Of a DNA stretch of 3,982 nt, positions 200 through 226 are shown piece after piece. The DNA lies in NCBI RefSeq assembly GCF_003334255.1, contig NZ_QOWU01000112.1. One strand, given 5' to 3'. Both the position numbers and the translations under genes were made by a program. The DNA comes from Escherichia coli. GTDB taxonomy: Bacteria; Pseudomonadota; Gammaproteobacteria; Enterobacterales; Enterobacteriaceae. Under the pieces are notes generated by a model. That model made no database searches. It was not told the DNA's origin and worked only from the letters and a program-made list of their open reading frames with translations. Each line of letters begins with the position of its first letter. Position 1 is the first letter of the stretch.

Positions 200-226
200 A
201 AGATAACTCATTGATGATGTTATCTT
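200..226 (-). terminator. Weak candidate terminator or hairpin overlapping the dicA stop codon
   Basis: Perfect 8-bp inverted repeat AAGATAAC (200-207) / GTTATCTT (219-226) with an 11-nt loop. T-rich on the plus side (225-232) and a short A/T run on the other side. The stem is AT-rich with only 2 GC pairs, so predicted stability is low. Confidence 0.2.

What the first reader, a model, noticed from the sequence alone, without database searches (positions are those of the whole stretch)
200..226. AT-rich perfect 8-bp hairpin straddling the dicA stop codon
AAGATAAC-N11-GTTATCTT overlaps the repressor stop and is flanked by T-rich sequence on the plus strand. It may be a weak bidirectional terminator insulating dicA from the downstream leftward operon, or a protein-binding dyad. 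The stem has only 2 GC pairs, so the terminator reading is tentative.
Basis: seen in the sequence. Interest (0 to 1): 0.2.

Follow-up and report, generated by a model that had tools for sequence, protein, structure and literature searches.

The report
dicA mRNA 3'-end hairpin (weak terminator)
The AT-rich hairpin over the dicA stop codon is real and marks the spot where the prophage repressor's mRNA ends in E. coli K-12, so it is an ordinary, weak terminator-type stem-loop separating the repressor gene from the toxic dicB operon downstream.

Summary
The inverted repeat is real and larger than reported. It has 11 perfect bp (197-207/219-229) plus 3 inner pairs, and the dicA stop (222..220, minus strand) lies in one arm. 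It is the only perfect repeat of this size in the window; about 2% of shuffles give one.

The region is identical to E. coli K-12 Qin. Published Term-seq (Adams 2021) lists a "primary" dicA 3' end at MG1655 1648368. That maps to window 193 on the minus strand, 4 nt past the full stem and 9 nt past the GUUAUC core. No opposite-strand end is listed there.

Relatives keep the hairpin through a G-C to A-U double change and a re-registered inner stem. One-sided changes give G·U only in dicA-sense RNA. The 12 nt after the U-tract vary freely.

The K-12-type core is weak (-5.2 kcal/mol, tail UUUUACCAC) and scores below a classical terminator threshold. Sister lineages score at or above it.

Best reading: a weak intrinsic terminator and 3'-end stem-loop for dicA mRNA, upstream of the dicB promoter and its operators. 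Trimming back to the stem after downstream termination is not excluded. A bidirectional role and protein binding are unsupported. The finding is ordinary and of low interest.

The parts
197..229 (-). Stem-loop of the dicA mRNA 3' end. The 5' arm is 229..219 (UAAAAGAUAAC, containing the last codons AAA AGA and the stop UAA). The inner stem is 217..215 with 210..208, with A218 bulged. The loop is 214..211. The 3' arm is 207..197 (GUUAUCUUUUA).
   Evidence: 11-bp perfect repeat plus 3 inner pairs; -11.4 kcal/mol, z -7.2. (conserved or compensated in 19 distinct variants).
193..201 (-). Tail UUUUACCAC after the GUUAUC core. The mapped in vivo 3' end of dicA mRNA is the C at 193.
   Evidence: Adams et al. 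2021 Term-seq, MG1655 1648368 (+), classified 'primary' for dicA. Mapped to the window.
220..627 (-). dicA (135 aa CI-type prophage repressor); stop codon TAA at 222..220.
   Evidence: annotated dicA in K-12; 99.7% identity over window 1-720.
167..184 (-). Operator-like site 2 (minus strand TGTTAGCTATAGCATACA), upstream of the predicted dicB promoter -35. Its edge is 9 bp downstream of the mapped 3' end.
   Evidence: My reading of the sequence against Oc = TTGTTAGTCATAACTAACAA (Yun 2012). Its position is conserved in relatives.
134..149 (-). Operator 1 (minus strand TGTTAGTCATGGCTAA) in the spacer and -10 of the predicted dicB promoter. -35 is TTGACC at 159..154 and -10 is TAATCT at 136..131.
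   Evidence: D1/I3: 88% match to the Oc site at 678-695. (dicBp lies upstream of ydfA and is repressed by DicA). The promoter hexamers are my inference from the sequence.
1..53 (-). Start of ydfA (ATG at 53..51), the first gene of the dicB (dicBF) operon; it runs off the window.
233..246 (+). Small G+C-rich hairpin GTCCGCTGACGGGC followed by TTTTAG on the plus strand, inside the last dicA codons. Together with the main hairpin it gives a tandem terminator-like shape for rightward (antisense) transcription.
   Evidence: There is no experimental support.

Best explanation
The element acts as an RNA hairpin on the dicA-sense (minus) strand that defines the 3' end of the dicA repressor mRNA. RNA polymerase leaving dicA transcribes the stem GAUAAC...GUUAUC and then UUUUACCAC. 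The hairpin plus short U-tract causes partial intrinsic termination, and the full 14-pair stem (A-tract paired with U-tract) then protects the released RNA from 3'-5' exonucleases. It sits between dicA and the dicB promoter with its operators. This keeps constitutive repressor transcription from running into ydfABC-dicF-dicB, which encodes cell-division inhibitors. By position it corresponds to the terminator at the end of the lambda cI-rex operon. Shown here: the hairpin, its statistical significance, the in vivo 3' end at its foot, and conservation of sense-strand pairing. Inferred: that the end arises by factor-independent termination rather than by trimming, and the insulating role.
For: Structure: 11-bp perfect repeat plus 3 inner pairs, z about -7. 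In vivo: Term-seq lists MG1655 1648368 (+) three times in a file with three condition tabs; two rows were displayed, with about 4700 and 2350 reads. String position 51 was calibrated on thrL. The end maps to window 193, 27 nt after the stop, 9 nt after GUUAUC and 4 nt after the full stem. Other primary ends in the same table lie 4-9 nt after their stems. The site is not in that paper's bicyclomycin/Rho list. Comparative: in 19 distinct variants from 57 loci, the 22 noncoding hairpin columns have 5 variable positions, against 12 of 12 in the next 12 nt. Pair 20-30 switches G-C to A-U, the K-12 type re-registers its inner stem, and three one-sided changes all give G·U in sense RNA. Sister lineages with longer U-tracts score at or above the classical threshold. 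Another lineage (L074-L081) has a different stem plus T6-8 at the same place. Context: dicBp lies downstream and drives toxic genes.
Against: The K-12-type core hairpin is very weak (-5.2 kcal/mol, 3 G-C pairs) and has only four U's. My from-memory d'Aubenton-Carafa-type score is -38, well below threshold, and the consensus scan did not call it. The stop codon lies inside the 5' arm, so a terminating ribosome would block folding. Many relatives, including Citrobacter, Serratia and the elppa5 type, have no hairpin here. Covariation rests on few independent events among closely related sequences. Term-seq cannot separate termination from processing; Adams et al. attribute most of the 3' ends they scored (5' UTR and ORF-internal ends, LB OD 0.4) to processing. 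Only one experimental dataset could be consulted.
Confidence: 0.6

Rival explanations
1. The hairpin is only a trimming barrier. Transcription actually stops further downstream, either by Rho on the untranslated dicA-ydfA spacer or by polymerase stalling against DicA bound at operator 2, whose edge is 9 bp beyond the mapped end. Exonucleases then chew back to the stem and leave the 4-nt overhang.
For: The 3' end lies 4 nt past the full stem, and several other primary ends in the same table also lie 4 nt past their stems, including hairpins with no U-tract. The core hairpin and U-tract are weak. The spacer RNA has C/G ratios of 1.2-1.8. An operator-like site starts 9 bp downstream. Adams et al. 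attribute most of the 3' ends they scored to processing.
Against: The site is absent from the bicyclomycin-sensitive list, although low expression limits that test. Sister lineages carry the same element with U5-U7 tracts and near- or above-threshold terminator scores. Natural changes lengthen the U-tract (L021, L028).
Confidence: 0.25
2. It is a true bidirectional terminator. Besides ending dicA mRNA, the plus-strand version (hairpin plus TTTTATTTGT, followed by a second hairpin at 233-246 plus TTTTAG) stops rightward antisense transcription from entering dicA.
For: The shape is A-tract, symmetric stem, T-tract. The plus-strand tail is T-richer, and the plus-strand score is better than the sense score in the K-12 type and group B (-18 vs -38; +11 vs about 0). 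A tandem second hairpin follows. A Rho-sensitive antisense transcript exists over ydfA/ydfB, heading toward the hairpin.
Against: No plus-strand 3' end is listed at the site. dicA and ydfA are co-directional, so there is no convergent gene. The antisense RNA normally ends about 330 nt earlier. The G·U-type variants weaken the plus-strand hairpin (-14.8 to -10.1 and -8.4 kcal/mol) more than the sense one.
Confidence: 0.12
3. It is a DNA dyad bound by a protein, centred about 89 bp upstream of the predicted dicB promoter start. Candidates are an extra DicA/DicC operator or an IHF site (the loop plus 3' arm reads CATCAATGAGTTA; group B reads AATCAATGCGTTA, a full match to WATCAANNNNTTR).
For: The loop ATCAA is invariant in all 19 variants. 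Group B matches the IHF core consensus fully; that consensus is recalled from memory. In lineage L074-L081 the arms are operator half-site sequences (GCTAAC/GTTAGC), and the 3' arm keeps a 24-25 bp distance to operator 2. Earlier literature speaks of three operator-like sequences between dicA and dicBp.
Against: The half-sites are everted relative to the proven operator TGTTAGT-N4-ACTAACA, differ in sequence (GTTATC) and differ in spacing. A single base change abolishes DicA binding to Oc, and Om and Oa are not bound. The IHF-like core is at chance level in the window (1 found, 0.56 expected). The dyad is unique in the window. The G·U-type and bulged variants break DNA symmetry but keep RNA pairing. 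I found no binding data.
Confidence: 0.06

Closest known systems
Canonical E. coli intrinsic (Rho-independent) terminators
   Same: A stem-loop directly followed by a U-run, and an in vivo 3' end 9 nt after the core stem. An A-tract upstream can pair with the U-tract. It sits just after a stop codon.
   Different: The stem is AU-rich (3 G-C of 14 pairs; core -5.2 kcal/mol against -11 to -23 for most other primary ends in the same table). There are only four U's. The stop codon lies inside the stem. It falls below the classical score threshold.
Terminator at the end of the lambda cI-rexA-rexB immunity operon (t-imm), from my own knowledge, not tested here
   Same: It lies between the prophage repressor transcription unit and the leftward early promoter and operators, so maintenance transcription does not run into early lytic or toxic genes.
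   Different: There is no sequence relationship. Here the repressor gene is followed directly, with no rex genes, and the element overlaps the stop codon.
Bidirectional terminators described by SEnd-seq in E. coli (Ju et al. 2019; known to me, paper not held)
   Same: A symmetric hairpin flanked by an A-tract and a T-tract.
   Different: Those typically sit between convergent genes and give 3' ends on both strands. Here the flanking genes are co-directional, and only the sense-strand end is reported.
3' stem-loops that stabilise mRNA after Rho-dependent termination (Dar and Sorek 2018, as cited)
   Same: The 3' end lies a few nucleotides beyond a stable stem, and the U-tract is weak.
   Different: It is not flagged as Rho-dependent in the one dataset available, and sister lineages look like genuine intrinsic terminators.

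Membership tests
Intrinsic (Rho-independent) terminator | Stable, usually G+C-rich stem-loop in the nascent RNA | tested here: inconclusive
   A significant hairpin exists (z -7.2). It is AU-rich: the core is -5.2 kcal/mol and the full stem -11.4. The consensus scan, which requires 3 or more G-C pairs and a loop of 3-8, did not list it.
Intrinsic (Rho-independent) terminator | U-rich tract immediately 3' of the stem | tested here: inconclusive
   The tail is UUUUACCAC, four U's, T-score 3.13. Relatives have U5-U7.
Intrinsic (Rho-independent) terminator | Transcript 3' end about 7-9 nt after the stem in vivo | tested here: met
   The published Term-seq end at MG1655 1648368 maps to window 193, 9 nt after GUUAUC.
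Intrinsic (Rho-independent) terminator | Classical discriminant score above threshold (d'Aubenton-Carafa type; formula from memory) | tested here: not met
   d = -38 for the window/K-12 type. It ranges from -6 to +13 in the group B and B' versions of the same element.
Intrinsic (Rho-independent) terminator | Termination by RNA polymerase alone, independent of Rho | not testable with these tools
   The only indirect evidence is absence from the bicyclomycin-sensitive list of Adams 2021.
Bidirectional terminator | Hairpin flanked by an A-tract and a T-tract, so both strands read as terminators | tested here: met
   The sequence reads AAAA-GATAAC...GTTATC-TTTT. The plus-strand tail is TTTTATTTGT.
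Bidirectional terminator | Transcript 3' ends on both strands, with convergent transcription | tested here: not met
   Only the dicA-sense end is listed within 16482xx-16484xx. The flanking genes are co-directional.
DicA/DicC operator | Inverted repeat TGTTAG(T/C)-N4-(A/G)CTAACA, as in Oc | tested here: not met
   The arms are GATAAC/GTTATC in everted order with an 11-bp spacer.
IHF binding site | Core WATCAANNNNTTR (consensus from memory) | tested here: inconclusive
   The window has no full match. The 12-mer without W occurs once, at 215..204, against 0.56 expected. Group B has a full match. I found no binding data.
Known structured RNA families (Rfam) | Match to any Rfam covariance model | tested here: not met
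   No hit at E of 1 or less in window 1-800.

The most novel reading that the evidence does not exclude
The hairpin is a deliberately leaky, translation-sensitive terminator. The dicA stop codon lies inside the 5' arm, so a ribosome finishing dicA would prevent folding. Read-through of dicA transcripts past the repressed dicB promoter would then supply the basal ydfABC-dicF-dicB RNA (for example the DicF seen in wild-type cells without induction). This would couple the level of the division inhibitors to repressor translation.
Probability: 0.08. Interest if true: 0.4.

Novelty: already known. Interest (0 to 1): 0.1.

Why it matters
It matters little beyond annotation. It gives the dicA transcription unit of Qin-type prophages a defined 3' boundary, and the hairpin accounts for a 3' end that already sits in a public Term-seq table. 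A weak terminator between a constitutively made repressor and a toxic operon is what one expects in a lambdoid immunity region. The only open point of some interest is how leaky it is, and whether read-through contributes to basal DicF/DicB expression.

Tried and rejected
A literature search for a described dicA terminator found nothing relevant. The 1986 dicA sequence paper is not held, and my guessed id for the SEnd-seq paper was not held either. Other 3'-end resources gave no dicA entry (TERMITe supplements) or had no supplementary text held, so only one experimental dataset supports the 3' end. Rfam gave no match.

The IHF core motif is at chance level. There is no second copy of the dyad in the window. 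The DicA, DicC and Ishihama papers gave no binding data for this spot. The genome-contig scan gave only three loci, none with the hairpin. The formal covariation statistics are weak because the sequences are close relatives. The C/G skew of the spacer could not discriminate Rho involvement.

I rejected a chance palindrome, a DicA operator (wrong orientation, spacing and sequence) and a coding role for the overlapping 30-aa plus-strand ORF 160..252 (no support).

Full report
**What the window is.** The window is a lambdoid prophage immunity region. dicA (135 aa) lies on the minus strand at 627..220 and dicC on the plus strand at 711..941. The first codons of ydfA start at 53..51 on the minus strand. 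Bases 1-720 are 100% identical to an E. coli O89m:H9 chromosome, 99.7% to the K-12 Qin prophage and 99.6% to phage PhiR42_1. Across 160-259 the window and K-12 are identical, so K-12 experiments apply directly.

**The observation.** The reported arms, AAGATAAC at 200-207 and GTTATCTT at 219-226, are correct.
- The perfect inverted repeat is longer than reported: 11 bp, 197-207 with 219-229.
- Folding adds three inner pairs (208-210 with 215-217, one bulge) around a 4-nt loop.
- As RNA the free energy is -11.4 kcal/mol on the minus strand (z = -7.2) and -12.9 on the plus strand (z = -6.1).
- As DNA it is about -8.4 to -8.5 kcal/mol on either strand.
- The dicA stop codon (222..220) lies inside the arm that is 5' in the dicA mRNA.
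- It is the only perfect inverted repeat of 9 bp or more (spacer 3-20) in the window. One of 11 bp appears in 2.3% of whole-window dinucleotide shuffles and in 0.1% of shuffles of the local 180 bp.

**Context.** Reading the minus strand downstream of dicA gives, in order:
- the hairpin (229..197);
- an operator-like site, TGTTAGCTATAGCATACA (184..167);
- a -35 TTGACC (159..154);
- a second operator, TGTTAGTCATGGCTAA (149..134), in the 17-bp spacer and overlapping the -10 TAATCT (136..131);
- a leader, and then ydfA.

The operators match the experimentally supported DicA site Oc, TTGTTAGTCATAACTAACAA (Yun 2012; window 677-696). The promoter upstream of ydfA, dicBp, is repressed about 22-fold by DicA and drives the toxic dicBF operon (Ragunathan 2023). 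The promoter hexamers are my inference from the sequence. The hairpin therefore sits between a constitutively expressed repressor gene and a promoter for cell-division inhibitors. The same order (repressor stop, optional hairpin, operator 2, -35, operator 1 over the -10, conserved leader) recurs in relatives.

**Experimental evidence.** Supplementary file 1 of Adams et al. 2021 (eLife, Term-seq of MG1655) lists a "primary" dicA 3' end at 1648368 (+).
- The coordinate occurs three times in a file with three condition tabs. Two rows were displayed, with about 4700 and 2350 reads.
- I calibrated the printed 61-nt strings on thrL (stop at 253-255, end at 256). The 3' end is string position 51.
- For dicA the RNA ends ...GUUAUCUUUUACCAC. 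This is window position 193 on the minus strand: 27 nt after the stop, 9 nt after the GUUAUC core and 4 nt after the full stem.
- No other 3' end on either strand is listed within 16482xx-16484xx, and the site is not in that paper's bicyclomycin/Rho list.
- That list does contain a Rho-sensitive antisense end over ydfA/ydfB, about 330 nt before the hairpin in the plus-strand direction.
It shows a sense-strand end at the hairpin and no antisense end.

**Comparative evidence.** I collected 83 loci encoding DicA relatives plus four annotated regions. Fifty-six of these loci, plus the window, carry this hairpin, in 19 distinct versions.
- Three inner-stem types occur: K-12 type (A)UCA/UGA, group B GCA/UGC and group B' ACA/UGU.
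- This amounts to a G-C to A-U double change, plus a re-registered stem in the K-12 type.
- Three one-sided changes (L006, L021, L028) all give G·U in the dicA-sense RNA. They would be C·A mismatches in the plus-strand RNA.
- The 22 noncoding hairpin columns contain 5 variable positions, four of them in the inner-stem positions that switch between the three types. All 12 columns right after the U-tract vary.
- The formal covariation statistics are modest, because the sequences are close relatives and the independent events are few.
- More distant relatives are mixed. One lineage (L074-L081) has TAGCTAAC-N5-GTTAGCTA plus T6-8 at the same place. Another (L067-L069) has a G+C-rich stem. mEp460 has a different hairpin 26 nt past the stop. 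Several lineages, including Citrobacter, Serratia and the elppa5 type, have none.
- This come-and-go pattern is typical of terminators.

**Strength.** I used a d'Aubenton-Carafa-type score with the formula recalled from memory, so it is only indicative.
- The window/K-12 core hairpin (-5.2 kcal/mol, tail UUUUACCAC) scores -38 in the sense orientation and -18 in the antisense. Both are below threshold.
- Group B scores about -6 to 0 (sense) and +11 (antisense). Group B' scores -3 to +13 (sense; +8.5 to +13 in three of its four versions) and +5 (antisense).
- The same scan on 19 other primary ends from the same Term-seq table gave scores from +35 to -81. Those ends lie 4-9 nt after their stems, which mostly have energies of -11 to -23 kcal/mol. 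dicA's core stem is among the weakest in that sample.
- The window's version is therefore a weak member. The 4-nt overhang beyond the full stem is also what exonuclease trimming would leave.

**Interpretation.**
- Most likely (about 0.6), the element is the 3'-end-forming hairpin of dicA mRNA. It would be a weak intrinsic terminator whose extended A:U-paired stem then stabilises the transcript and limits read-through into dicBp and ydfABC-dicF-dicB.
- The main rival (about 0.25) is that termination happens downstream, either by Rho on the modestly C-rich spacer or by a DicA roadblock at operator 2, which starts 9 bp beyond the end. The hairpin would then be only the trimming barrier.
- The bidirectional reading (about 0.12, not exclusive of the others) rests on shape alone.
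- A protein-binding dyad (about 0.06) is not supported. The arms are everted and differ from the DicA operator. The IHF-like core is at chance level. The dyad is unique in the window, and I found no binding data.
- Rfam has no match.

**Novelty and verdict.** This is an ordinary terminator-type stem-loop in a well-studied locus, and its 3' end is already in a public table. I found no paper that discusses it, and the 1986 sequence paper could not be read. I rate it as already known and of low interest. The only reading with some novelty is that the terminator is leaky and sensitive to translation because the stop codon lies in the stem, and that read-through feeds basal DicF/DicB expression. 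Nothing here tests that.

Noticed in passing
window 56-125 (minus strand), the ydfA 5' leader: The leader between the predicted dicB promoter and ydfA is almost invariant across immunity types that differ elsewhere. It contains the palindrome ACACCGCACGGUGU and a CCCC-N8-GGGG stem next to the ydfA ribosome-binding site. It sits where a lambdoid nutL site would be.
   Followed up: no
L074-L081, about 4-30 nt after the repressor stop; compare window 197-229: In this lineage (64-71% DicA identity) the post-stop hairpin arms are operator half-site sequences (GCTAAC/GTTAGC) in everted order, followed by T6-8. The K-12 arms GATAAC/GTTATC differ from them by one base. The 3' arm lies 24-25 bp from the first half-site of operator 2 in both lineages.
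   Followed up: partly
window 233-246 (+): A second small G+C-rich hairpin, GTCCGCTGACGGGC followed by TTTTAG, lies on the plus strand inside the last dicA codons. With the main hairpin it gives a tandem terminator-like shape for antisense transcription. In group B, synonymous changes keep it paired through G·U on the plus strand only.
   Followed up: partly
K-12 MG1655 1648695 (-), about 330 nt left of window position 193 (outside the window): Adams 2021 lists a bicyclomycin-sensitive 3' end antisense to ydfA/ydfB. This shows a Rho-terminated antisense transcript heading toward dicA.
   Followed up: no
window 204-215 (-): The hairpin loop plus 3' arm reads ATCAATGAGTTA, an IHF-core-like 12-mer. 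Group B relatives have the full 13-mer AATCAATGCGTTA. Its frequency in the window is at chance level.
   Followed up: yes
window 925-3217 (+): Downstream of dicC the window differs from K-12 Qin, which has only ydfX/ydfW remnants. It carries an intact YdaT-like ORF (176 aa), a 339-aa ORF in the position of a replication gene (its homologue in mEp460 is annotated 'Primosomal protein I'), a 140-aa ORF, and a 118-aa ORF (my unverified guess: methyltransferase-like) that ends prematurely at 3217. The prophage is therefore more complete than Qin.
   Followed up: no
window 629-710: The dicA-dicC intergenic region holds the proven operator Oc (677-696) plus further half-site-like sequences (GTTAGCTAATGCTAAAT at 629-645, GTTAACA at 664-670). 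The literature calls these Om and Oa and reports that DicA does not bind them.
   Followed up: no
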